IMG/VR virus record: IMGVR_UViG_3300010283_000228
Location: 1 to 15,333 of that record
DNA length: 15,333 nt
Direction: 5' to 3' (one strand)
DNA from: a virus
Lineage: Duplodnaviria > Heunggongvirae > Uroviricota > Caudoviricetes
Shown here: positions 1 through 15,259 of the stretch, one piece after another
How the letters are laid out: every line of letters begins with the position of its first letter
Numbering within the stretch: the first letter of the stretch is position 1
Made by a program: the position numbers and the translations under genes
The notes under the pieces: generated by a model
Database searches by the model: none
Seen by the model: the letters and a program-made list of their open reading frames with translations, nothing else
What the model was told of the DNA's origin: nothing

Positions 1-85
1 AAAAATGAGCGGATGGGAAACTCTCGAAATGGTTCGTCGATATGCTCACCTCGCACCTAATCACCTTACCGAACACGCACGGTAA
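1..85 (+). CDS. tyrosine recombinase/integrase, C-terminal fragment (5' end lies left of the window)
   Basis: Frame 2 reads KMSGWETLEMVRRYAHLAPNHLTEHAR followed by TAA at 83-85. The LEMVRRYAHL stretch matches the conserved C-terminal catalytic-tyrosine region of phage integrases (established family signature). Only 27 codons are visible, so the family assignment is tentative. Confidence 0.55.
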   Translation, partial: KMSGWETLEMVRRYAHLAPNHLTEHAR

Positions 86-171
86 ATAGATTCGATCCTG
101 AACCCATCGGTCCCAAATCTGTCCCAATAAAAAATAAGGAAGGTATTAGTGATGTGTAACTTATTGATTTA

Positions 172-189
172 AATGGTGCGATAATAGGA
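172..189. other. possible degenerate copy of the tRNA-Thr 3' end (candidate distal att core of the island)
   Basis: aatggtgcgataatagga here versus aatggtgccgataagagga at 15182-15200 (3' end of the tRNA plus 2 flanking nt): matching blocks of 8, 5 and 4 nt with one indel and one mismatch. Seen by eye; could be chance. Confidence 0.25.
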
Positions 190-250
190 ACAAAACACAA
201 ACAATAAATACATTGATGTTTAATGATATTTTCATATTGCATTTTTATAG

Positions 251-273
251 ATACCCCCAAAAGTACCCCCAAT
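251..273. repeat. 23-bp direct repeat ATACCCCCAAAAGTACCCCCAAT, copy 1 (candidate integrase arm-type site at the distal island end)
   Basis: Identical 23-mer found again at 15049-15071 between the integrase start and the tRNA. The repeat itself contains two ACCCCCAA units. The sequence identity is direct observation; the function is inference. Confidence 0.6.
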
Positions 274-773
274 AAATTTTCCCTTATCCCAAACTGTGCA
301 AAAATCGACTCTCTAGCACTCTTTTTCTTCGAGTCTCAACCTCACCAGCACTCAATGATGAAAGGCTGGTGGATGCCCAAGGATAACTACTAGCGTAAAG
401 TATTTTTTAATTTCGCGAGGGTACAAATTTGATGAGGCGGGCAGTCCCGGACAGCCATGGCTACAACGATTTTCCCGCCTCCTCTCCACCGACTACACTG
501 TTATGACACCAGCAGTGCTCACCTTGTGCAGAATTTCTGAACGTCAAGAATGTAGGCCATGATGATATGTGGCGATGCACCGAGTGACGCTGCACATAAT
601 GGAGATTAAATCTAATAATGTTGGTGGTGGAGATGTGAAGAAGGCGACCCGAGTGTTTGTGTGAAATGAATTGATGCCTCTACAGAAATGATTATATAGA
701 TTCAATAACTGGTTAGGTAAGAAAACTATCTGTTCTAAGGATTATGGTTTGAAAATTAAATCATGAATACATT

Positions 774-799
774 AAAAAAACCACCTCATCGAGAGGTGG
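774..799 (-). terminator. rho-independent terminator downstream of the ATPase gene
   Basis: Stem ccacctc (781-787) / gaggtgg (793-799) with loop atcga, flanked on the plus strand by a 7-nt A run (774-780), which gives a U tract after the hairpin on the minus-strand transcript. Lies 44 nt past the ATPase stop. Confidence 0.65.
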
Positions 800-842
800 T
801 TTAGGAGTAACAATAAAATTCTGTTTATAATGGCTTTCAATA

Positions 843-2048
843 TCACATATTCGCCAATCGAATAAAACTCGGCATCCTTGGATCGGTGAACTTATACACG
901 CCTCTACCCAGTCTTTTTATTGTCGCTCCAAAATCCTTTTTAATTAAGCGTCCTGTATAGTTACTCATACTTTGGTTGTTATATCTCTCTCCAGTATCTT
1001 GATATATCTGGTTTATCCATTCTTTAACGCCAAACTCCTCATTTTTAAACTTTGACGCTGAATATAGAATTTTTTTGTACACATCTGTTTTAGATGAACG
1101 AACAGCATCCTCATACTCTCTTCTTAGCCTACCTTCAGCATTCTCAACTGATTTTTCAATTGATTTATGGAAGATTTCAGAATTAATAACTTTGCTTGAA
1201 TCAACAATGGCAGCCTCAGCAGCCTCCTTGCAAAGGAGGTGAGTAAAATATGGAAAGCCATTGCTTATATCAACTATTTGATTTTTAATTTCATCGTCAA
1301 ACCTTAGTCCTAATCCCTTTTCTCCCAGACTGATTATTTCTAACAGATGCTTTTCATCAACCCCTCCCAGACAAACCTCATGCAGGCATCTATTAACAGA
1401 TTCATGCCCTGCCGTAAGGCTTTTACCATCCTTAGAAATTCCCACAAGCAATACTTTCAATTTCGAATTAAAATCGCTCAACTGCTTTATAAACTCTGCA
1501 ACAGCTTTCTTTATATCGTCTTCTAATACATCAAACTCATCTATAACGAGAACCCCCTGAATTATTCCAATAGTCGCTGCTGCCTTTCGAGGAGTTATTT
1601 CATCTCGTTCTATAGTTATTTTTTCTTCATAACCCACGTTACCAGTAAAGAAACTAAAAAACTTTGCAGATAAGCCTGCCTTTATTACTTTCTCTTCCTT
1701 ATACTTTTCCGGGTTTTGTGAGATAAATATTGCACATTCAGAGACGATATCTTTAAATTTAGTGTTAGTATCACACTTCACATTAAAATACTCACCTAAA
1801 AGTACGTTGTATTGCCTGCCACCAATAACTGTAGCATTAGCTAATGAGCTCTTTCCGATTCCTCTATCACCATATATCATACAATGCCTACCAGGAACCG
1901 TTAAATTATCTAAAATACTTCTCACTTCAGTATCTCTCCCCTTTAAATACTCAGGATTAGATATAGGAGTTGAAGGAGTATAATATTTATTCACATCATC
2001 TTTTTTTGCAAATTCTTGTGCATACTCTGCAAAAATATTCACATACAT
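843..2048 (-). CDS. stand-alone P-loop NTPase (AAA+/AAA_16-like ATPase domain with uncharacterised C-terminal region), 401 aa
   Basis: Long ORF with a GGAG Shine-Dalgarno about 6 nt upstream of the ATG at 2048. Translation shows Walker A GDRGIGKSS preceded by an LKGRDTE motif typical of AAA_16-type NTPases, and Walker B VLVIDEFD. Visibly AT-rich compared with the island backbone. Flanked by its own upstream and downstream terminators. Confidence 0.85.
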   Translation of the reverse strand: MYVNIFAEYAQEFAKKDDVNKYYTPSTPISNPEYLKGRDTEVRSILDNLTVPGRHCMIYGDRGIGKSSLANATVIGGRQYNVLLGEYFNVKCDTNTKFKDIVSECAIFISQNPEKYKEEKVIKAGLSAKFFSFFTGNVGYEEKITIERDEITPRKAAATIGIIQGVLVIDEFDVLEDDIKKAVAEFIKQLSDFNSKLKVLLVGISKDGKSLTAGHESVNRCLHEVCLGGVDEKHLLEIISLGEKGLGLRFDDEIKNQIVDISNGFPYFTHLLCKEAAEAAIVDSSKVINSEIFHKSIEKSVENAEGRLRREYEDAVRSSKTDVYKKILYSASKFKNEEFGVKEWINQIYQDTGERYNNQSMSNYTGRLIKKDFGATIKRLGRGVYKFTDPRMPSFIRLANM

Positions 2049-2224
2049 CTCCTTTTCATTAAAAATGATTAACCTACCACTTTCTGTTTTGCAACCGTTA
2101 CAAACTTCTTACGAGACTAAATATTTACGCATATCAAAGGAATGTTACGCACGCTCATATCCATCCCACGCTATCCCATTTTACATGAACATAAGTAAAA
2201 GCTCGCAACATCAGCATCAACAAA

Positions 2225-2243
2225 AAGCCTTACCCGTAGGCTT
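2225..2243 (-). terminator. possible weak terminator between the small ORF and the ATPase gene
   Basis: Stem aagcct (2225-2230) / aggctt (2238-2243) with loop tacccgt, followed on the minus-strand transcript by UUUUUG. Short stem, so low confidence. Confidence 0.35.
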
Positions 2244-2282
2244 AATGTTTGGCTTGGCTGTTGACTTACCGTAACGCTCCGC

Positions 2283-2462
2283 TCACCGTCGTGGCCTGTC
2301 CGGTTTCCGCCACTGATACGGCCTCACATCATCATGCTGGTGGCGTTCCTGTTGCAGCACAACGGAAACAGGCGCTGAACACCTGTTAATTTTGCTTGCT
2401 GGTTGTTTGATTTCGGCAATGCTGCGGATCATCTCCAGCATATCGGCTTCGGTGATGGTCAT
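2283..2462 (-). CDS. small hypothetical protein, 59 aa (below the ORF-track cutoff)
   Basis: Hand translation from the ATG at 2462 gives MTITEADMLEMIRSIAEIKQPASKINRCSAPVSVVLQQERHQHDDVRPYQWRKPDRPRR with TGA stop. AAGGTG lies about 7 nt upstream of the ATG. No recognisable motif. Confidence 0.3.
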   Translation of the reverse strand: MTITEADMLEMIRSIAEIKQPASKINRCSAPVSVVLQQERHQHDDVRPYQWRKPDRPRR

Positions 2463-2470
2463 GATTTACA

Positions 2471-2752
2471 CCTTAGGAAATCTTAGGGGCTGGTTGACAC
2501 TTTCCGGCTTAAGACCTTAACAAATCTTAACATCGCAGGTTGACACACTTGACACTTTTTCGCGAAAAACCTTATCAAACCTTAGCATTTCTGAGCATGG
2601 CAACTTGACACTTTTCGCGATTTTTTCGGCTTTTTGACGAGGTAAATCTGGCGCAAAGCCAGTAACGGCGGGGTTTACAGCGAGGTTGACACTTTTTCGC
2701 GTTCAGAGTGTAAAGTGTCAACCTGGCAAGCTGCTCAACTTGACACTTTTTG
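2471..2752. repeat. array of short repeats: at least six TTGACAC(T)TTTTCGCG units plus one inverted copy, interleaved with three CCTTA-N-AAATCTTA units
   Basis: TTGACAC at about 2494, 2541, 2549, 2606, 2687 and 2740; inverted GTGTCAACC at 2716-2724; CCTTAGGAAATCTTAGG at 2471, CCTTAACAAATCTTAACA at 2514, CCTTATCAAACCTTAGCA at 2570. All seen directly in the sequence. Sits immediately downstream of the wHTH gene and upstream of the 59-aa ORF and ATPase. Confidence 0.75.
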
Positions 2753-2755
2753 ATG

Positions 2756-3292
2756 TCATTGATGGTCTGATTTTTCCCATTCAGCCAGGGCGTTTAGCCC
2801 GGCTTCACTCCATGATTCCAGTTCATCGGGATAATCACCTGCAACATAGCAGAGTTCGCAACGTAGCATACGAATTGCCAGCCTGGCATTACCTCGCAAA
2901 TTGTATTTTTCAAAGTAATGCTGCCCTTCATCATCCTCAAGGCAGATAGCACCATCATCAAGAAAGAGCACTTCCCAGCCTAATTCCCCGGCTGCATACA
3001 GCACACGCTGCTGTATGTCATCGTCCGTTACTGGCGAAGGAATTTTACCGTCTCTGGCCTTAACTGCTTTCCAGAATTCGCCCCACGTCATTTCCAGCGT
3101 TCTTTCTGGCCACATTTCAGAAACGGTGTCTTTCCCTTGTGCCGGTGGGCTGTTCCGCTGCTCTGTCGCCTCCACATCAATTTTTTTGCCAGACATGATC
3201 ACTTCGCCTTTCTCGATCCAGTCGTAAACTGTCTGGCGGCTTACGCCTTTGTATTTGGCGTATTCGGCTTTACTCATCAACATGTAGCTCAC
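2756..3292 (-). CDS. winged-HTH DNA-binding protein with phage Nu1/small-terminase-like N-terminus, 178 aa (function uncertain: packaging-redirection or regulator)
   Basis: GAGGTG Shine-Dalgarno 6 nt upstream of the ATG at 3292. N-terminal KAEYAKYKGVSRQTVYDWIEKG aligns by eye with the lambda Nu1 HTH (KKQLADIFGASIRTIQNWQEQG) and also with the MerR/excisionase-type HTH. Acidic C-terminal half. Confidence 0.8.
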   Translation of the reverse strand: MSYMLMSKAEYAKYKGVSRQTVYDWIEKGEVIMSGKKIDVEATEQRNSPPAQGKDTVSEMWPERTLEMTWGEFWKAVKARDGKIPSPVTDDDIQQRVLYAAGELGWEVLFLDDGAICLEDDEGQHYFEKYNLRGNARLAIRMLRCELCYVAGDYPDELESWSEAGLNALAEWEKSDHQ

Positions 3293-3382
3293 CTCATGCG
3301 TATACGATAAAAAATAATTTCATGCGGAAAGGGAATGCGTTGTGGGTATGGAGGAAAGGGGCAATAACCGCCCCTTACTGAT

Positions 3383-3655
3383 TCAGTTGCGCCAGGATGG
3401 CTGGCTAAGCGTGGTTTTCATTACATCATTGACGACCTGTTTTACGATTTCTGTGTTGGCAGTCGTGCTTTCAACATCAACAAAGCCATAATCGCCAATT
3501 TCCACCGTCAGGGATTCCAGTTTCTTCCCTAGAGCATCAGGCAACTCTCCACTGAACCGGTGCTGAAGATTTTCCACCAGCAACGCCCTGAATGCCTCGC
3601 TGTTCTCTTTTTTCTGCCATAGCTGGCGTTTATCCACTCTGATATTTAATTTCAC
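3383..3655 (-). CDS. hypothetical protein, 90 aa, translationally coupled to the upstream 55-aa gene
   Basis: GTG start at 3655 overlaps the TGA stop of the upstream gene (GTGA), with GAGGTG about 5 nt upstream. Protein-like composition; no recognisable motif. Confidence 0.55.
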   Translation of the reverse strand: MKLNIRVDKRQLWQKKENSEAFRALLVENLQHRFSGELPDALGKKLESLTVEIGDYGFVDVESTTANTEIVKQVVNDVMKTTLSQPSWRN

Positions 3656-3819
3656 AGTCTCACCTCTTTAAGTGCCTTATCCATCAGTTGCCGGGCGATA
3701 ACATGAATCGACGGTGCCACACCAAGCACAGATTTCTGACGCTCTTCGTCCTGGATGCGTTGCAGGGCTTCGATCTGCCTCCGGGAAAGTAAAACTGGCT
3801 TTACTCCGTGATTTTTCAT
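3652..3819 (-). CDS. small putative DNA-binding protein, 55 aa (MKNHGVKPVLLSRRQIEALQRIQDEERQKSVLGVAPSIHVIARQLMDKALKEVRL)
   Basis: Internal ATG of the 107-aa track ORF, with AGAAGGGA Shine-Dalgarno 5 nt upstream. The N-terminal part of the track ORF is Cys/Asn-rich and runs through palindromic operator DNA, so it is judged non-coding. Perfect palindromes lie 20-70 bp upstream. Confidence 0.5.
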   Translation of the reverse strand: MKNHGVKPVLLSRRQIEALQRIQDEERQKSVLGVAPSIHVIARQLMDKALKEVRL

Positions 3820-3838
3820 GATGATCCCTTCTGAATGA

Positions 3839-3891
3839 CAATAATTGCAATTATTGCACAAATTGAAATGATACCAGAGACAATTGCAATA
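3839..3891. promoter_or_regulatory. operator-like palindromes upstream of the 55-aa/90-aa module
   Basis: Perfect 18-bp palindrome CAATAATTGCAATTATTG at 3839-3856 and a related AATTGCAATA at 3882-3891, just upstream of the Shine-Dalgarno of the 55-aa gene. Confidence 0.5.
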
Positions 3892-4097
3892 AATGAAACG
3901 AAAAGCATCAATAAACCAACCTTCGGCACTGAATGCTCTGATTTTTCTGCAAAGGTATGGCAGATGTTGGTGCATGCAAACATAAAGGCAATAGCAGAAG
4001 AAGCTGCGGGGAGTGAAAAGGGGAAGTTTTTATAAATACACGATTGTCGCCTCACTGCAGGTTAACAGCCACAAGCTCCATGATAATAACTTGTTAA

Positions 4098-4421
4098 TTA
4101 TTTCATCAGATTTTTCATTATTTGCGCGATTGAGTACACAAGCAAAAACTCGGCAGCCGCAAGAGTATAAAAAACATAAATTCGCTTAGCCCACCGACGA
4201 TGAAAGAACTCCTCAGCATGGCCGGATGTTCGAGATACAAGCCATGCACCTACTGCACACAGAGCAGGTGCAATGAGCACAGTTATAAACCAGATTGTGA
4301 TGCCCATCCCATGCCTACTGATAATAGCCATTGGTATTGCAAAAATGAATGTTAGAGCAGCATTAGCTAATAGAATATCTTTTAAAGTATTTTCAATTAG
4401 TTTTGCTAGATTATCTTTCAT
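4098..4421 (-). CDS. small integral membrane protein, 107 aa, three predicted hydrophobic helices
   Basis: Three hydrophobic segments of about 20 residues each (ILLANAALTFIFAIPMAIIS, ITIWFITVLIAPALCAVGAWLV, IYVFYTLAAAEFLLVYSIAQIM). TGGGGGA lies 4 nt upstream of the ATG. AT-rich. Confidence 0.65.
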   Translation of the reverse strand: MKDNLAKLIENTLKDILLANAALTFIFAIPMAIISRHGMGITIWFITVLIAPALCAVGAWLVSRTSGHAEEFFHRRWAKRIYVFYTLAAAEFLLVYSIAQIMKNLMK

Positions 4422-4451
4422 CTAATCCCCCACGTTGAACATTAATATATA

Positions 4452-4474
4452 AAAGCCCCTTACTAAGGGGCTTT
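4452..4474 (-). terminator. rho-independent terminator after the lipoprotein gene
   Basis: 10-bp perfect stem aaagcccctt (4452-4461) / aaggggcttt (4465-4474), followed on the minus-strand transcript by UAUAUAUU. Confidence 0.55.
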
Positions 4475-4485
4475 GCACGGATTGT

Positions 4486-5628
4486 TTAAAGGGAACTTTT
4501 TTTCGCCCCTTCAATTTCTGCCTGACAAATTTCGTCATTTGTAAATGAGTACTGCAGATAGACATATCCCTGAGTGGAATTGTTCGCTCTGGCCTCAATA
4601 GATATAGTATCAATATTGTTTTTTAATGGTATTTCTTTTGTTCCCTTCCATGTAGCAGATAAGAAGCGTTCTTTTTTGTTTAGCCCCCTCATCCAGTCCT
4701 GAGGATCTTTCCAAATTGAACCAGCCAGCAAAAAGTCTGTAGTATCAGCCTTTCCATACAGAGAACTTAAAGAATTACTCAATTCTTCAAACTTGGATTT
4801 AAGAGCCAATCCATAGCTATCAGTATCAATATTTTTTCCTAAAGCCCGTATTTGACATAAACCAGCTTTCGGGGAGATCAGCAAACCATACATTTCAAAA
4901 TCTGCGTTTTGCTTCGGTAATTTATCAGAAGTATACAGATTCACACTGTCTGGTAGTGGCTTGAGCTTAGCACCGATCATATCTTCGATGTTTTTCTGTG
5001 TAAGACCGGCTTCTAAGCCAAACGGACCATCCGCTGGCGGGAGTAAAGGAAGTTGCTCTTGGGAATTTTTGGCTGTTACTTCCGTTTCAGTACTGTTTTT
5101 TGCGTCATTAGCTTGTACTGATGCCAGCTTAACTTCAGCGAGGCCATACTTGGCTGTGAGGTACTTTTGCTGCAACATTGCCATGGTCTGCTCTTCAGTG
5201 GCAACAGTAGATAATTTTAGTACCTTTATCAGACCACCACTATACTGACGAGCATCAGCTTTGGCTTCGTTGATTTTTGCATCTAAGCTGTCAATTTCAG
5301 TTTTAATTGAAGCCGCAAGCTCAGGATCAGGTTTTACTCCAGATACAACAACATCAATTTTGGCACCTGATTCAATAGCATTAATACGCTGTTCCAAAAG
5401 CGCTTTATTAGTTCCTAATATTTCCAGTCTTGCTGTTGTCAGATTTTTTATCAACCCACCAGAAAACTGCTGGTCAACTTCCTTAGCTGCTGATATTTCA
5501 CCTTCCGTTTGCGACAGTTCAGCTTTAAGAGCAGCTACTTCCTGTTTCTGTTCTGGAGTTAACTCTTCTGGCCCACATCCGGTTAACATTACTATACCGA
5601 CTAATGTTGCAATTAAAGTTTTATTCAT
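4486..5628 (-). CDS. lipoprotein, 380 aa, with internally repeated SGGLIK-containing module and uncharacterised C-terminal domain
   Basis: N-terminus MNKTLIATLVGIVMLTGC is a signal peptide ending in a lipobox (LTGC). Two related segments, QQFSGGLIKNL and RQYSGGLIKVL, each sit in a charged, helix-prone context. Long protein-like ORF, AT-rich. Shine-Dalgarno is weak (AGGG 2 nt from the ATG). Confidence 0.8.
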   Translation of the reverse strand: MNKTLIATLVGIVMLTGCGPEELTPEQKQEVAALKAELSQTEGEISAAKEVDQQFSGGLIKNLTTARLEILGTNKALLEQRINAIESGAKIDVVVSGVKPDPELAASIKTEIDSLDAKINEAKADARQYSGGLIKVLKLSTVATEEQTMAMLQQKYLTAKYGLAEVKLASVQANDAKNSTETEVTAKNSQEQLPLLPPADGPFGLEAGLTQKNIEDMIGAKLKPLPDSVNLYTSDKLPKQNADFEMYGLLISPKAGLCQIRALGKNIDTDSYGLALKSKFEELSNSLSSLYGKADTTDFLLAGSIWKDPQDWMRGLNKKERFLSATWKGTKEIPLKNNIDTISIEARANNSTQGYVYLQYSFTNDEICQAEIEGAKKSSL

Positions 5629-9867: not shown

Positions 9868-10084
9868 GGTGCACCTCCTGTACATCAGCCATGATAATTT
9901 TTCCGGCCTTATCCAGTGCCTGATCGGCTTTCAGCTGCACAAATGCTAAATAATGGGAGATGCATTCTGATTCTCTGGCTGCGTGTTTATGCGCCACACC
10001 AGCGATAGCAGAAATCTCAATAAGTGAATCCATCAGCGTTTTGATAGCGTCTACCGCTGCATCAGGCCATGTTGCATTACACAT
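9860..10084 (-). CDS. hypothetical protein, 74 aa
   Basis: AGGAGGTGG upstream of the ATG at 10084; ATGTGTAA overlap with the upstream stop. Confidence 0.55.
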   Translation of the reverse strand: MCNATWPDAAVDAIKTLMDSLIEISAIAGVAHKHAARESECISHYLAFVQLKADQALDKAGKIIMADVQEVHHA

Positions 10085-10442
10085 GCTCCACCTCCTGGCG
10101 AATACGGGCAGCGAATACCATCACGCAGCCATCAGGAGATTGCTGGCGTGCTTCCTGTTCGCTGGTGGCCTCGATGTGAATCACGCGCGGTTGTGCCGTA
10201 CTCAGGGCGATAAAACGCCAGATAAAATTGTTTTCGCATTTCTGAATAAACAACGTGTTTTCTTCGCGCCCTTTCCATGTTGCCGAGATATAGCCCATGT
10301 CATTGAGCATCTCGCAGGCATCAACCAGCGTATCGGCGGCTACATGAACAGTGTTTTTACCGTCAGCCATGCAATCACGGTGCACCGCCAAGAAGGTGTA
10401 TATAAATTTAGGGTGAGTTTGGGTATGCTGTGCCCCAGCCAT
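10077..10442 (-). CDS. hypothetical protein, 121 aa (first gene of the leftward small-gene/primase operon)
   Basis: Internal ATG at 10442 with GAGGT 7 nt upstream, located just inside the divergent promoter region. It is the C-terminal in-frame part of the 512-codon track ORF. Confidence 0.45.
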   Translation of the reverse strand: MAGAQHTQTHPKFIYTFLAVHRDCMADGKNTVHVAADTLVDACEMLNDMGYISATWKGREENTLFIQKCENNFIWRFIALSTAQPRVIHIEATSEQEARQQSPDGCVMVFAARIRQEVEHV

Positions 10443-11615
10443 AATCGTTACCTCATTTAACGGTTTGGTTAGACGCCCCGCTACTGCCGCAAACAGTTCG
10501 GGGCGTTGTCGTTTATATCCTCTTACTGAGGTGTGATTTAAATTAAATTTAACTGAATCACAGGTCAAGTATTTTTTGTGATTCTTTTTTGTGTATACTG
10601 AATCACATCTTTTGTTTAGGAGAATGCACATGGCAAAAAACACTATCAACGACAAATCAAAACAGATTTCAATTCGTATCCCACATGATGCTTTTGAAGG
10701 CATGGAATCCGTAAAACTGGACGGCGAAAGCAACGCCGGATTCATAGTAACCGCCATGCGTGGTGAGATCGCCCGCCGCCAGGCAGAAGGAAGCGGAGAA
10801 AATCCCCTGGTTTCTTCGCTCAATGCACTGGCGCAGGTGGAAAAAATCGGAGTCAAAGCTGTCGAGGAGATCGGGCAGCTCGTCACCGTCGCACGTGAAG
10901 AACTCCAGCGCCGCAAGGCCAAAGAATCAGAATAATAACTATCATCGCCGTGGTGTGAGGAACTCCGGCGCATTGCTTTACAGGTACACAGAATGACCAA
11001 CAAAGAATCGACCAATACACCATCACCGGCACGGAAAAGACAGCGCAGAAAGATAACGTACGAATATGAGTCAGACAGATTCGCGCCCTGTGCGTTTATC
11101 CTTGAGAAATTCCTTAAAGAGTACAGGCGCACAAAAATGGGGTCGCATACCTGGAAAACATCGCGGCATGGCAATGTTAAAGAGCAGGAATAGCCCACCA
11201 GCAAGCCAACACACTGATCACATTGCCCACCAGCCGCAAATCTGGCATTGTTGGCGATGTGTTCAAGTGTGTAGCTTTCCCACTGGTGGCCCTCTGCGGT
11301 CGCCTTTGTTTTATCCAGAACGAAATTAGACATCAGATTGATCATCACCTTGCGACCTGACAAAATCGCATCAGTCGCGCCACCAGCAAAATTTTTTGCT
11401 TTCCGGACAGCGTGACCAACGACATTTTGCAGCAAAATATTCTGCATTTCTGGCGTGCTGTAGTAACGGTGATCAGCGCCTTCACTCTGTGCGACCACAA
11501 CGCTATAATCTGCCTCGTAGACAGTAAGCAATATGGCGCAGTAGGCTATTCGTTCACAAAGGCGCTCCGGCAACGGGGCGCTTTCTCTTTTTGTAACGGT
11601 CAGAGCGTTACACAT
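10077..11615 (-). CDS. 512-codon open frame; real translation start at 11615 but middle section probably not a genuine protein
   Basis: ATG at 11615 has GGAGGA upstream and the same ATGTGTAA stop/start overlap as the other coupled genes. The first ~140 codons look protein-like. The middle ~250 codons are Ser/Cys/Arg-rich and run antisense through the RHH gene and the AT-rich promoter region. No in-frame stop before 10077. Confidence 0.3.
   Translation of the reverse strand: MCNALTVTKRESAPLPERLCERIAYCAILLTVYEADYSVVVAQSEGADHRYYSTPEMQNILLQNVVGHAVRKAKNFAGGATDAILSGRKVMINLMSNFVLDKTKATAEGHQWESYTLEHIANNARFAAGGQCDQCVGLLVGYSCSLTLPCRDVFQVCDPIFVRLYSLRNFSRINAQGANLSDSYSYVIFLRCLFRAGDGVLVDSLLVILCTCKAMRRSSSHHGDDSYYSDSLALRRWSSSRATVTSCPISSTALTPIFSTCASALSEETRGFSPLPSAWRRAISPRMAVTMNPALLSPSSFTDSMPSKASCGIRIEICFDLSLIVFFAMCILLNKRCDSVYTKKNHKKYLTCDSVKFNLNHTSVRGYKRQRPELFAAVAGRLTKPLNEVTIMAGAQHTQTHPKFIYTFLAVHRDCMADGKNTVHVAADTLVDACEMLNDMGYISATWKGREENTLFIQKCENNFIWRFIALSTAQPRVIHIEATSEQEARQQSPDGCVMVFAARIRQEVEHV
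10533..10607. promoter_or_regulatory. divergent promoter region with two operator-like inverted repeats TGTGATT-N16-AATCACA
   Basis: TGTGATT at 10533 and 10578, AATCACA at 10556 and 10601, giving operators centred about 45 bp apart. A TATACT -10-like hexamer at 10594-10599 overlaps the second operator, upstream of the plus-strand RHH gene. Confidence 0.5.
10630..10935 (+). CDS. Arc/CopG-type ribbon-helix-helix DNA-binding protein, 101 aa (candidate island repressor)
   Basis: TAGGAGA Shine-Dalgarno 6 nt upstream of the ATG at 10630. KQISIRIPHDAFEGMESVKLDGE followed by SNAGFIVTAMRGEI fits the strand-helix-helix pattern of Arc-like repressors. Coiled-coil-like C-terminal half. Only plus-strand gene in the island, directly after the operator repeats. 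Confidence 0.55.
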   Translation: MAKNTINDKSKQISIRIPHDAFEGMESVKLDGESNAGFIVTAMRGEIARRQAEGSGENPLVSSLNALAQVEKIGVKAVEEIGQLVTVAREELQRRKAKESE

Positions 11616-12456
11616 GGCTGTTTTCCTCCATGCGACGGGCTAACCAACGCTGCGAAAGACGAATTAATTCAGCTTTCCGCTGGTGGTAGTCCAGGCCTAA
11701 CTCAATCAGCGTGATATTGCTCTGCTCAAGGTAAGAAAGGTGCTCAAGCTGCAACGTGCTCATGTGGTCGCGTGGTTCGCCTGTGATGCCGTTCGCCTGC
11801 GTCCACTGTTTTGCAGTCATGCCACCCAGCACGATACGCGCCAGCATATTGGCTTCCGTGGTGTAGTGGTGCTGGAGTGTGTTTTTACCCAGTTCAGCCC
11901 GGTACGCCTCCAGCGCGGCACACATCGGCTTAAAGTAGCTGGCAACGGAGATACGGGCTTTCAGTTCCCGGCGTAACGCTGCGGAACGCACTGGCGCTAC
12001 CTTGTGTAGCTCCTCCTCGCATTTGATGAAGTACTGACGAACGGCGCGGCCCTGTTCGGTGCGCTCGACCATCGCCAGTTCTTTCGCCATGTTCGTGGAG
12101 ATCAAATAGTCTTCACTGCGACGATCACCGCCGCGCTTTGTTGTCCAATCAAAATCAAACTGTTCAATATTTACACTTTGGTTCCCCCGTTTCGGGGAAT
12201 CAAAGTACAAATTATCTACAACTTCAAAATCCACGCCCTTTTTAAATCCGTACTCATCAATGCGTCCTTTAATCCAGGTTGTGAAATCACGCTTCACACC
12301 CAGCGCCTTATGCAACGCTCTGGCGCTAACAATATTGGTTTCACGTCCGCCAATAACGCCGGAAATAACCGGGATAATTTCGCCGAAATTTTGCAGATTC
12401 TGGTTTTCAGGCCGAACGAAGCCCTGCCCCTGTACGGGCGTTTTTCGCTGTTTCAT
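11608..12456 (-). CDS. phage antirepressor-like protein (AntA/Bro-N plus KilA-C-like regions), 282 aa
   Basis: AGGAG 5 nt upstream of the ATG at 12456. SARALHKALGVKRDFTTWIKGRI and later NMAKELAMVERTEQGRAVRQYFIKCEE resemble remembered antirepressor-domain signatures. Confidence 0.75.
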   Translation of the reverse strand: MKQRKTPVQGQGFVRPENQNLQNFGEIIPVISGVIGGRETNIVSARALHKALGVKRDFTTWIKGRIDEYGFKKGVDFEVVDNLYFDSPKRGNQSVNIEQFDFDWTTKRGGDRRSEDYLISTNMAKELAMVERTEQGRAVRQYFIKCEEELHKVAPVRSAALRRELKARISVASYFKPMCAALEAYRAELGKNTLQHHYTTEANMLARIVLGGMTAKQWTQANGITGEPRDHMSTLQLEHLSYLEQSNITLIELGLDYHQRKAELIRLSQRWLARRMEENSHV

Positions 12457-15183: not shown

Positions 15184-15259
15184 TGGTGCCGATAAGAGGA
15201 GTCGAACCTCCGACCTTCGCATTACGAATGCGCTGCTCTACCAACTGAGCTATATCGGC
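15184..15259 (-). tRNA. thrW: tRNA-Thr (anticodon CGU)
   Basis: Reverse complement reads GCCGATATAGCTCAGTTGGTAGAGCAGCGCATTCGTAATGCGAAGGTCGGAGGTTCGACTCCTCTTATCGGCACCA: 7-bp acceptor stem, D arm, anticodon loop TTCGTAA (anticodon CGT), T arm GGAGG/TTCGACT/CCTCT, 3' CCA. The thrW symbol is assigned because CGU is the thrW anticodon in E. coli. Confidence 0.9.

What the first reader, a model, noticed from the sequence alone, without database searches (positions are those of the whole stretch)
843..2048. Stand-alone AT-rich P-loop ATPase in the island cargo region: candidate single-gene anti-phage or abortive-infection factor
A 401-aa protein with Walker A (GDRGIGKSS) and Walker B (VLVIDEFD) and about 200 residues of unrecognised C-terminal sequence. 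It has its own promoter region and is bracketed by terminators (2225-2243 upstream, 774-799 downstream). Its composition is clearly more AT-rich than the replication/integration backbone, suggesting separate acquisition. Cargo positions in satellites and PICIs are known hotspots for defence genes (established knowledge); the defence role itself is inference.
Basis: partly seen in the sequence, partly recalled or inferred. Interest (0 to 1): 0.6.

Follow-up and report, generated by a model that had tools for sequence, protein, structure and literature searches.

The report
Lone ORC-like ATPase in defence slot
This is a real, solitary gene for a small ATP-driven, probably DNA-binding switch protein, and it sits in the swap-in cargo slot of a phage satellite where sister elements carry proven anti-phage genes, so it is a good but untested candidate for a new single-gene phage defence.

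Summary
ORF 843-2048(-) is real and probably starts at the GTG at 2042, giving 399 aa. It has invariant Walker A and B motifs, is bracketed by two terminator-like hairpins, and has 35.6% GC against 46.5% for the rest of the window.

The "unrecognised" C-terminal half is an AAA+ lid plus a basic winged helix. The whole protein is a minimal ORC/Cdc6-STAND-type ATPase (Pfam nSTAND1), closest in fold to the archaeal ATPases PAB2304 and SSO1545 and to Orc1/Cdc6. It has no sensor repeats, no effector domain and no conserved partner gene.

It is the only gene in a 1.7-kb cassette (~483-2217) beside the attR end of a PICI-like satellite at tRNA-Thr. In twelve sister E. coli islands the same slot held:
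- PARIS
- SieB
- a RexA-like DUF4747 pair
- a methylase + DUF262 + HEPN module
- other cargo, or nothing

Homologues occupy three other phage cargo slots: the P2 gpA-portal defence hotspot, the lambdoid Q-lysis slot, and the variable centre of mycobacteriophage Kevin1.

The defence role rests on genomic association only. I found no experimental work, and PADLOC v2 gives only a weak match to the candidate PDC-S59. The most likely mechanism, which is inferred, is ATP-dependent oligomerisation on invading nucleic acid.

The parts
843..2048 (-). CDS of the minimal ORC/Cdc6-STAND-type AAA+ ATPase (401 aa from the ATG at 2048; more likely 399 aa from the GTG at 2042; stop codon 843-845)
   Evidence: Pfam nSTAND1 38 bits against a cut-off of 27.1; phrog_6841 at 1.5e-102
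1845..1871 (-). Walker A / P-loop, G60-S68 (GDRGIGKSS); G60, R62, G63, G65, K66 and S68 are invariant
1530..1553 (-). Walker B, V166-D173 (VLVIDEFD); D170, E171 and D173 are invariant
1593..1715 (-). Variable, low-confidence insertion (residues ~112-152) after helix 2, at the position of the ORC/Cdc6 ISM/HEH insert
   Evidence: pLDDT below 50 at 117-127 and 136-148; highest column entropy in the alignment
1389..1391 (-). Invariant R220 at the base of strand 5 (motif GHxSVxRC); putative arginine finger
   Evidence: the ORC/Cdc6 hallmark is described in PMC12839542
1239..1259 (-). Lid 'GxP' motif, G264-H270 (GFPYFTH); Tyr occupies the position of the RuvB sensor-2 Arg
846..1139 (-). C-terminal winged-helix domain (residues ~304-401); net charge +8 (family median +5); conserved basic residues R367, R379, R382, R391, R397; conserved DPRMPSFIR tail
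778..802 (-). Intrinsic-terminator-like hairpin (10-bp stem plus T-run) 41 nt after the stop codon
2049..2224 (-). AT-rich upstream spacer. It must hold the promoter if the gene is transcribed on its own; no consensus promoter was found there. AGGAG RBS at 2049-2053
2225..2243 (-). Terminator-like hairpin ending the conserved upstream 59-aa ORF; marks the right edge of the cassette
483..2217 (.). Variable cargo cassette: the stretch with no homology to sister islands, which carry other cargo here
2283..2462 (-). Conserved 59-aa backbone ORF that borders the slot in most sampled sister islands
156..482 (.). Conserved island end shared with sister islands; contains an attR-like imperfect copy of the tRNA-Thr 3' end at 174-189

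Best explanation
The gene is a single-gene accessory cassette of a ~15-kb PICI-like phage satellite integrated at tRNA-Thr. It encodes a minimal ORC/Cdc6-STAND-type AAA+ ATPase: an N-terminal GRxxE segment, the ATPase core, a lid and a basic winged helix. Its most likely role is inter-virus competition, meaning anti-phage defence or superinfection exclusion expressed from the resident element. Proposed mechanism, which is inferred: the ATP-bound protein oligomerises through its invariant arginine finger on invading nucleic acid, or on a replication or packaging intermediate. The winged helix and the variable insertion after helix 2 would bind that target. The protein would then block replication, transcription or packaging by occupancy or remodelling, as ORC, TnsC, MuB and BrxC-type ATPases do on DNA. 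It has no nuclease, NADase, protease or membrane domain, so it cannot act enzymatically on its own. Shown here: the fold, the motifs, solitariness, foreign composition, placement in the slot and the recurrence of homologues in phage hotspots. Inferred: the defence phenotype, the DNA ligand and the non-suicidal mode of action.
For: Fold and motifs:
- AF2 model with pLDDT 88.5.
- K66, D170/E171 and R220 are invariant in 48 homologues.
- The winged helix has net charge +8 and conserved Arg residues in the recognition helix and wing.

Slot:
- The cassette spans 483-2217, between conserved backbone and the attR end.
- 170 of 5426 complete E. coli genomes have the backbone, and only 1 has this gene.
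- Twelve sampled sister islands carry PARIS (AAA ATPase + DUF4435, O104:H4), SieB, a DUF4747 RexA-like protein plus partner (PMC6426596), methylase + NsnA/PD-T4-2_A-like DUF262 (1e-55) + HEPN, other cargo, or nothing.

Other elements:
- The 85%- and 52%-identical homologues lie alone between gpA and the portal gene of P2-like phages in Citrobacter, Salmonella and E. coli. The same holds in 8 of 13 close IMG/VR contigs. This is the hotspot defined by Rousset et al. 2022 (PMC9122126).
- A 52% homologue lies between antiterminator Q and the lysis genes of lambdoid phages.
- A 29% full-length homologue is gp30 of the cluster-N mycobacteriophage Kevin1, in the variable centre next to a HicB-like gene.
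- On a Clavibacter plasmid the homologue is close to a DUF4238 gene.

Stand-alone status and spread:
- Nearly all of 1411 cluster representatives (E<=1e-30) are ~400 aa.
- The distribution is patchy across bacterial phyla and some archaea.
- Split pseudogene copies occur.
- 44 of 48 members match the PADLOC candidate PDC-S59 weakly.
Against: - No experiment on this family was found in ten literature searches.
- PADLOC v2 gives only 27.6 bits to a candidate (unvalidated) model, over residues 157-286.
- Hotspots also carry non-defence cargo. About a quarter of P2 loci hold partition systems, and some hold toxins (PMC9122126).
- Many distant homologues sit in ordinary chromosomal contexts with no defence gene nearby, for example Aeromonas.
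- Six distant homologues lie next to ribonucleotide reductase, which could point to DNA metabolism.
- A defence protein with neither a sensor nor an effector domain has little precedent.
- DNA binding is inferred only from charge and fold.
Confidence: 0.55

Rival explanations
1. It is a defence gene, but it works as a sensor or adaptor, not as the executor. The ATPase senses a phage protein or DNA, oligomerises, and activates or recruits an effector encoded elsewhere. That effector could be a conserved host nuclease, protease or membrane protein, or a helper factor, and the outcome would be abortive infection.
For: The protein meets the Pfam nSTAND1 threshold, has a STAND-like GxP lid and lacks the sensor-2 Arg. 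In actinobacteria the module is fused to, or translationally coupled with, an NB-ARC + TPR NLR-like protein (P0210; Saccharothrix L044/L054 with a -4 overlap). That shows it can work inside a multi-part STAND pathway. Seven of 48 members weakly match IetA, the ATPase of the two-gene IetAS system. Host-factor repurposing by STANDs is documented (Avs7 with EF-Tu, PMC13581612).
Against: No partner gene recurs in more than 6 of 60 loci, and the one that does is ribonucleotide reductase. The gene moves as a one-gene cassette between Enterobacterales, Aeromonas, Bacteroidota and Actinomycetota, so any partner would have to be universally conserved. There is no repeat-type sensor domain.
Confidence: 0.17
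2. It is not a defence gene but a regulatory or maintenance factor of mobile elements. It would be an Orc1/Cdc6-like DNA-binding ATPase that senses DNA damage or replication state and tunes induction, lysogeny, copy number or host DNA metabolism for the element that carries it.
For: An Orc1/Cdc6 homologue (Orf8) of the archaeal temperate virus SNJ2 is reported to control the lysogeny-induction switch after DNA damage (PMC10123103 abstract). The fold is that of initiators and loaders. Homologues lie next to parAB on Y. pestis pMT1 and next to ribonucleotide reductase in six distant loci. P2 hotspots also hold partition systems.
Against: The gene is present in 1 of 170 E. coli islands with this backbone and is replaced by unrelated defence cargo in the others, so it is dispensable for the island's life cycle. 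The same gene serves elements with unrelated regulation and replication: P2 gpA, a lambdoid phage, a D5-type primase satellite and a mycobacteriophage. Its composition is foreign to the backbone.
Confidence: 0.13
3. It is a weapon of the element against other mobile elements or against host defences. It could interfere with the helper phage, exclude plasmids or conjugative elements, or act as a counter-defence protein, as opposed to protecting the cell against lytic phages.
For: Satellite cargo positions also hold helper-interference genes (established knowledge of PICIs and P4). The pMT1 homologue lies near ArdA and a DNA methylase. ORC-like ATPases take part in DNA 'capture' systems aimed at invading DNA in general (PMC12839542).
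Against: The same family is carried by helper-type phages themselves (P2-like and lambdoid) and by solitary chromosomal loci. That does not fit a satellite-specific anti-helper role. It has no similarity to known anti-defence proteins.
Confidence: 0.1
4. It is the replication initiator, or a helicase-loader or transposition-target ATPase, of the island, as the PGAP product name 'orc1/cdc6 family replication initiation protein' suggests.
For: The PGAP product name in E. coli JNU, and fold similarity to Orc1/Cdc6, DnaA, TnsC and MuB.
Against: TIGR02928 scores 15.7 bits against a cut-off of 181.3. The island has its own D5/DUF5906 primase-helicase and iteron-like repeats elsewhere. Sister islands replicate without this gene. 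P2-like carriers have gpA. No transposase is adjacent.
Confidence: 0.03

Closest known systems
Archaeal 'Walker-type' AAA+ ATPases PAB2304 (PDB 2qen) and SSO1545 (PDB 2fna), Pfam ATPase_2 (PF01637)
   Different: Sequence identity is only 12-18%, and the window protein itself does not reach PF01637. Those proteins have no known function, so the match says nothing about mechanism.
Orc1/Cdc6 replication initiators (e.g. PDB 1fnn, 2qby, 2v1u)
   Same: Same three-domain architecture; N-terminal GRxxE segment; an insertion after helix 2; an invariant Arg at the base of strand 5; a basic C-terminal winged helix.
   Different: The sensor-2 Arg is replaced by Tyr. TIGR02928 falls far below its threshold. 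There is no origin or replication-gene synteny, and the gene is dispensable cargo.
STAND / NLR-like defence NTPases (Avs1-21, bNACHT; Pfam nSTAND1)
   Different: It lacks both the C-terminal repeat sensor and the effector domain that define the tripartite STAND architecture (PMC13581612). That survey grouped only sensors of >=400 aa. Only the N-terminal part (positions 15-217 of 379) of the nSTAND1 model is matched.
BREX ORC/Cdc6-clade ATPases BrxC and BrxD
   Different: They work only within 4-7-gene BREX operons with a methylase and PglZ. No such genes are adjacent here, and there is no significant sequence match.
PADLOC candidate PDC-S59 and IetA of the IetAS system
   Same: There are weak profile matches: PDC-S59 in 44 of 48 members (best 1.2e-13) and IetA in 7 of 48. 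PDC-S59 is likewise a single-gene ATPase of about 430 aa.
   Different: The window protein scores only 27.6 bits, over the Walker B-to-lid segment. PDC-S59 is an untested candidate. IetA needs the protease IetS.
P2 old and tin; PARIS; SieB; RexAB (positional analogues)
   Same: They occupy the same cargo positions: the P2 gpA-portal hotspot, and the terminal slot of this satellite family.
   Different: The proteins are unrelated. The analogy is one of genomic position only.

Membership tests
Pfam nSTAND1 (PF20703) | Score at or above the curated gathering threshold | tested here: met
   38.0 bits against 27.1, but only model positions 15-217 of 379 are matched. Most homologues carry the same precomputed hit.
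STAND NTPases (Avs / NLR-type defence receptors) | Tripartite architecture: central NTPase plus a C-terminal repeat sensor plus an effector domain | tested here: not met
   The 401 aa are fully accounted for by ATPase core + lid + winged helix. There are no further Pfam domains. Family members are ~400 aa throughout.
STAND NTPases | GxP motif in the helical lid and loss of the AAA+ sensor-2 arginine | tested here: met
   G264-F-P266 is conserved. Tyr aligns with the RuvB sensor-2 Arg.
[quoted passage not shown] | AAA+ core + helical bundle + C-terminal winged helix, with closest fold matches to Orc1/Cdc6 | tested here: met
[quoted passage not shown] | [quoted passage not shown] | tested here: met
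   R220 is invariant and lies immediately before strand 222-227. The feature is described in PMC12839542.
[quoted passage not shown] | Helical (ISM/HEH) insert after strand 2 / helix 2 | tested here: inconclusive
   A 33-41-residue insertion is present at 112-152, but it is poorly conserved and modelled with pLDDT below 50.
Orc1/Cdc6 replication initiators (NCBIfam TIGR02928) | HMM score above the curated cut-off, and linkage to an origin or replication module | tested here: not met
   15.7 bits against 181.3. The gene is absent from 169 of 170 E. coli islands with the same backbone.
Known anti-phage systems in PADLOC-DB v2.0.0 | Confident full-length match to a model of a validated system | tested here: not met
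   Only PDC-S59 (candidate, 27.6 bits, partial), mad8 (P-loop only) and Cas3 (noise). Newer DefenseFinder and PADLOC releases could not be queried.
Anti-phage defence gene (functional class) | Measured reduction of phage infection that depends on the gene | not testable with these tools
   No experimental report was found.
Defence-hotspot cargo of mobile elements | Sits in a slot where related elements carry alternative, known defence genes | tested here: met
   PARIS, SieB, a DUF4747 RexA-like pair and methylase + DUF262 + HEPN occupy the same slot. Homologues lie in the P2 gpA-portal hotspot (PMC9122126).
PICI-type phage satellite (the host element) | Integrase + AlpA + primase/replicase, ~10-15 kb, at a tRNA, without virion genes | tested here: met
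   Integrase, AlpA (69 bits) and a D5_N/DUF5906 primase are present, with tRNA-Thr at 15184-15259. The span is ~15 kb. No structural-gene Pfam hit occurred in the ORFs scanned. Helper-dependent mobilisation was not testable.

The most novel reading that the evidence does not exclude
The family is a new class of immunity protein: a sensor-less, effector-less ORC/Cdc6-like ATPase that defends by 'initiator mimicry'. It would load as an ATP-locked oligomer onto incoming phage DNA or its origin or packaging site and make it unusable. That would be a non-enzymatic, non-suicidal, single-protein defence, spread by P2-like and lambdoid phages, satellites and mycobacteriophages. In actinobacteria it would be wired as the output module of NLR-like sensors.
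Probability: 0.2. Interest if true: 0.8.

Novelty: new variant of a known kind. Interest (0 to 1): 0.5.

Why it matters
If it defends, it would add a widespread single-gene system to the defence catalogue. The family has about 1,400 clusters at 50% identity with E<=1e-30 and occurs in many bacterial phyla and some archaea.

It would also show that the bare ORC/STAND nucleotide switch plus a winged helix is enough for immunity. Current STAND surveys set such proteins aside because they lack large sensors. That would bear on how NLR-type receptors and replication initiators diverged, and on how a defence can work without an enzymatic effector.

The test is cheap: a 1.5-kb clone, a phage panel and three point mutants. 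If it is not defence, the gene is still a marker of a well-defined cargo slot in a common E. coli satellite family (170 of 5426 complete genomes), which can be mined for other systems.

Tried and rejected
- **Promoter scan.** The sigma-70 consensus scan of 2049-2224 found no site on the gene's strand. The promoter stays inferred.
- **PDB by sequence.** With the single protein and with the 48-sequence profile, nothing scored better than E 0.0016 (ClpC, RuvB fragments). There is no solved close relative.
- **NCBIfam.** All hits fall far below their cut-offs, including Sll1717-family, TIGR02928 and RuvB.
- **BFVD viral fold library.** It returned only generic clamp-loader/RFC AAA+ matches, which are uninformative.
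- **Partner gene.** No credible ORF lies in 1-842. Clustering of +/-3 neighbours in 60 loci gave no family in more than 6 loci. The two-gene-system idea was rejected for this lineage.
- **Transposition-target ATPase (TnsC/MuB/IstB-like).** Rejected: no transposase is adjacent in the window, in JNU or in the phage loci.
- **Replication initiator.** Rejected (see rivals).
- **attR.** An exact direct-repeat search between the tRNA and the left end found nothing of >=11 bp. Only an imperfect 16/17-nt copy was found by eye.
- **Literature.** Searches for nSTAND1, PDC-S59, phrog_6841, PF01637 with defence, Cdc6 with anti-phage, and Kevin1 found no functional study of this family.
- **Rousset et al. 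supplements.** They list single-gene 'AAA_22' cargo in P2 and P4 hotspots. I could not establish whether those accessions belong to this family, and the accessions of this family were not found in the stored, truncated tables.
- **PADLOC on neighbours of distant homologues.** It gave only a QueC hit in Kangiella and nothing for the Clavibacter DUF4238 gene.
Full report
**1. The observation**

ORF 843..2048 on the minus strand is present and encodes 401 aa. An AGGAG sequence lies directly before the ATG but 6 nt before the GTG at codon 3. PGAP and most homologues give 399 aa, so translation probably starts at 2042.

Their key residues are invariant in a 48-sequence alignment that reaches down to 34% identity.

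Both terminator-like hairpins are found by the scan, at 2243-2225 and 802-778 on the minus strand. Three sites were found in the region against 1.3 expected from shuffles. The scan finds no sigma-70 consensus on the gene's strand in the 176-nt spacer upstream, so the "own promoter" is an inference.

The gene has 35.6% GC and GC3 of 28.6%. The rest of the window has 46.5% GC, and the primase and integrase have GC3 of about 48%. The composition claim therefore holds, although the 380-aa ORF at 4486-5628 is also AT-rich.

**2. What the protein is**

Pfam places it in nSTAND1 (38 bits, cut-off 27.1), with sub-threshold AAA_22, AAA_16 and ORC-CDC6-like hits. NCBIfam gives nothing near any cut-off. 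The PGAP product name in E. coli JNU, "orc1/cdc6 family replication initiation protein", is not backed by TIGR02928 (15.7 bits against 181.3).

AlphaFold2 with the alignment gives a confident model (pLDDT 88.5, pTM 0.84) with these parts:
- an N-terminal helix
- an AAA+ core
- a low-confidence insertion at about 112-152
- a helical lid (about 231-303)
- a C-terminal winged helix (about 304-401)

The previously unrecognised C-terminal half is thus a lid plus a winged helix.

Fold searches agree with each other:
- Foldseek against the PDB is led by ORC1/Cdc6, the archaeal ATPases PAB2304 and SSO1545, RFC and RuvB.

R220 is invariant and lies at the base of strand 5, where ORC/Cdc6-type ATPases have their arginine finger (feature described in PMC12839542). 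The lid carries a conserved GxP motif, with Tyr at the position of the RuvB sensor-2 arginine, which is a STAND-like trait. The winged helix is basic (net +8; family median +5) with conserved arginines at 367, 379, 382, 391 and 397.

Nothing in the 401 residues resembles a nuclease, NADase, protease, membrane or repeat-sensor domain.

**3. Where it sits in the window**

The window is a roughly 15-kb integrative element. On the minus strand, in order, it carries:
- tRNA-Thr at 15184-15259
- a tyrosine integrase, AlpA, an AntA antirepressor and an Icd-like domain
- DUF4222, a D5_N/DUF5906 primase-helicase, ProQ/FinO and PerC

An imperfect copy of the tRNA 3' end lies at 174-189. Integrase plus AlpA plus primase at a tRNA, with no virion genes detected, is the layout of enterobacterial PICI-type satellites. 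That classification rests on established knowledge, and mobilisation was not tested.

BLAST against sister islands shows that homology runs from 2218 onwards and again over 156-482. It is absent over about 483-2217. That 1.7-kb cassette contains only this gene, its upstream spacer and its terminator. No credible second ORF lies between it and the island end.

**4. The slot is a variable defence slot**

The backbone next to the gene (2200-3400) occurs in 170 of 5426 complete E. coli genomes. The gene itself occurs in one, strain JNU, at 99.8% identity and at the same position of a related island at thrW.

I inspected twelve sister islands. Beyond the conserved 59-aa ORF the slot held:

| Cargo | Strains |
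|---|---|
| DUF4747 protein plus a 199-aa partner | IMT5155, ARS-C301, SCU-104 |
| 662-aa protein with a weak match to an Argonaute-associated domain | A41 |
| SieB superinfection-exclusion protein | OkiPb01690, WGI31CT |
| DNA methylase + DUF262 protein matching NsnA/PD-T4-2_A at 1e-55 + HEPN-like nuclease | FDAARGOS_1300 |
| AAA ATPase + DUF4435, the PARIS gene pair | O104:H4 2011C-3493 |
| two hypothetical proteins | F6326-C1 |
| nothing | PapRG-04-4, STEC346 |

DUF4747 is the domain shared by lambda RexA and the Sbash gp30 defence protein (PMC6426596). ARS-C301, SCU-104 and O104:H4 sit at the same chromosomal site as JNU, between the LysR pseudogene next to paoD and the island. The exchange is therefore of the cassette and not of the site.

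**5. Homologues in other mobile elements**

- An 85%-identical protein from Citrobacter lies alone between the replication gene gpA and the portal gene of P2-like prophages.
- A 52%-identical paralogue does the same on a Salmonella P2/186-like phage-plasmid and in four complete E. coli genomes.
- Eight of the thirteen closest IMG/VR viral contigs have the gpA - ATPase - portal order, and two distant relatives (25-27% identity) also lie beside a P2-type portal.
- This is the gpA-gpQ hotspot that holds old and tin in P2 and that Rousset et al. showed to be a reservoir of anti-phage systems (PMC9122126).
- Other 52% homologues lie between antiterminator Q and the lysis genes of lambdoid phages.
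- A 29%-identical, full-length relative is gp30 of the cluster-N mycobacteriophage Kevin1. It lies between the lysis cassette and the integrase, next to a HicB-like gene, in the region its describers call the variable centre.
- On plasmids, relatives lie near toxin-antitoxin genes, a methylase and ArdA (Y. pestis pMT1) or close to a DUF4238 gene (Clavibacter). None of the three plasmid loci inspected shows an annotated replication initiator nearby.

**6. The family**

A profile search of 1.84 billion representatives finds 1411 clusters at E<=1e-30, and nearly all are about 400 aa. The family is scattered over Pseudomonadota, Bacteroidota, Actinomycetota, Verrucomicrobiota, Spirochaetota and some archaea. 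It matches PHROG 6841, which has no known function. Split copies occur in Klebsiella.

Among 60 loci no neighbouring gene family recurs in more than six. The recurring neighbour is the large subunit of ribonucleotide reductase, in Oceaniferula, Psychrobacter, Marinobacter and Thioalkalicoccus. Four loci are followed by a C5 cytosine methylase.

One lineage differs. In Saccharothrix an NB-ARC + TPR gene overlaps the start of the ATPase gene by 4 nt. One metagenomic protein, P0210, fuses NB-ARC, DUF7779 and TPR to the module.

**7. What is known**

PADLOC v2 gives only a weak, partial match to the untested candidate PDC-S59, in 44 of 48 members (best 1.2e-13). Matches to IetA and mad8 are weaker still. 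I found no paper that tests this family.

The recent survey of prokaryotic STANDs defines them as tripartite and grouped only sensors of 400 aa or more (PMC13581612). ORC/Cdc6-type ATPases with winged helices are known parts of BREX (BrxC, BrxD) and related multi-gene systems (PMC12839542).

**8. Most likely mechanism**

These points are shown:
- The protein is a competent-looking ATP switch with an arginine finger.
- It has a basic winged helix.
- It has no effector domain and no fixed partner.
- It lies in defence slots of four unrelated kinds of phage-related element.

From this I infer that it is expressed from the resident element and oligomerises in an ATP-dependent way on invading nucleic acid or on a replication or packaging intermediate. 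It would block the invader by occupancy or remodelling, in the manner of ORC, TnsC, MuB or BrxC on DNA. I put the defence or exclusion role at about 0.55-0.7 (adding the sensor/adaptor variant) and this specific mechanism at about 0.3.

**9. Rivals**

- **Sensor or adaptor that needs a trans-acting effector.** This is the main alternative. It is supported by the NB-ARC-TPR fusion and weakened by the gene's wide solo transfer.
- **Regulatory or maintenance role.** It is suggested by the SNJ2 Orf8 precedent, by the pMT1 par neighbourhood and by the ribonucleotide reductase adjacency. The gene's dispensability among sister islands argues against it.
- **Role against other mobile elements or against host defences.** This cannot be excluded.
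- **Replication initiator or transposition ATPase.** This is effectively refuted.

**10. Verdict**

It is an uncharacterised family in a known setting. As a bare ORC/STAND module it would be a new variant among defence ATPases. It is a strong, cheaply testable candidate but not a demonstrated system, so I score interest at 0.5.

Noticed in passing
window 1-83 (+): This is the 3' end of a second tyrosine-recombinase gene (...[25 protein letters not shown]). Homology to E. coli JNU begins only at 156, so the island here abuts a different neighbour, possibly another integrative element in tandem.
   Followed up: partly
window 174-189 and 15184-15200: There is an imperfect copy of the tRNA-Thr 3' end: TGGTGCGATAATAGGA against TGGTGCCGATAAGAGGA. 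It is a likely degenerate attR and gives an island span of about 15.0 kb. No exact repeat of >=11 bp exists.
   Followed up: partly
window 2494-2755: An iteron-like motif, TTGACACTTTTT(CGCG), is repeated in several copies between the 59-aa ORF and the 178-aa HTH_17 protein. It could be an operator array or the satellite origin.
   Followed up: partly
window 4486-5628 (-): A second AT-rich gene (380 aa, GC 40%, GC3 32%) has no Pfam or PADLOC hit and a weak lipoprotein-like N-terminus. It is present in the ARS-C301, SCU-104, O104:H4 and F6326-C1 islands but absent from IMT5155, A41 and JNU. This is a second variable cargo position.
   Followed up: partly
window 10077-11615 (-): A 512-aa ORF has only a C-terminal ~45-residue match, to the Icd-like cell-division inhibitor domain (NF033153). 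JNU has a 121-aa Icd-like gene and two plus-strand genes instead. The ~460-residue N-terminal part is unassigned.
   Followed up: no
window 11608-12456 (-): The C-terminal part of the AntA-family antirepressor matches the PADLOC candidate PDC-S22 (1.7e-10).
   Followed up: no
L042, L051, L056, L061, L070, L071 (distant homologues): The ATPase gene lies immediately downstream of the ribonucleotide reductase large subunit in four genera from two phyla. In Psychrobacter it appears to sit between nrdA and a putative nrdB. This could be an insertion hotspot or a functional link; it is unexplained.
   Followed up: partly
L044 and L054 (Saccharothrix); protein P0210: An NB-ARC + TPR STAND gene overlaps the ATPase gene by 4 nt. 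One protein fuses NB-ARC, DUF7779 and TPR to the module. This suggests the module can serve as the output of an NLR-like sensor.
   Followed up: partly
window 843-2048, residues H55, C92, H215, C221, H270: Five invariant His and Cys residues lie in the ATPase core and lid and have no assigned role. H55, H215 and C221 are predicted to lie near the N-terminal ends of neighbouring strands 1 and 5.
   Followed up: no
L191 (E. coli O104:H4 2011C-3493), locus positions 2703-4659: The 2011 outbreak strain carries the PARIS gene pair (AAA ATPase + DUF4435) in the same slot of a sister satellite at thrW. That island lacks the conserved 59-aa ORF.
   Followed up: partly
E. coli JNU record NZ_CP083263.1 (L001 18144-19343): The RefSeq product name 'orc1/cdc6 family replication initiation protein' for WP_001019824.1 is not supported by the NCBIfam model (15.7 bits against a cut-off of 181.3). 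Other records name the same cluster 'nSTAND1 domain-containing NTPase'.
   Followed up: yes
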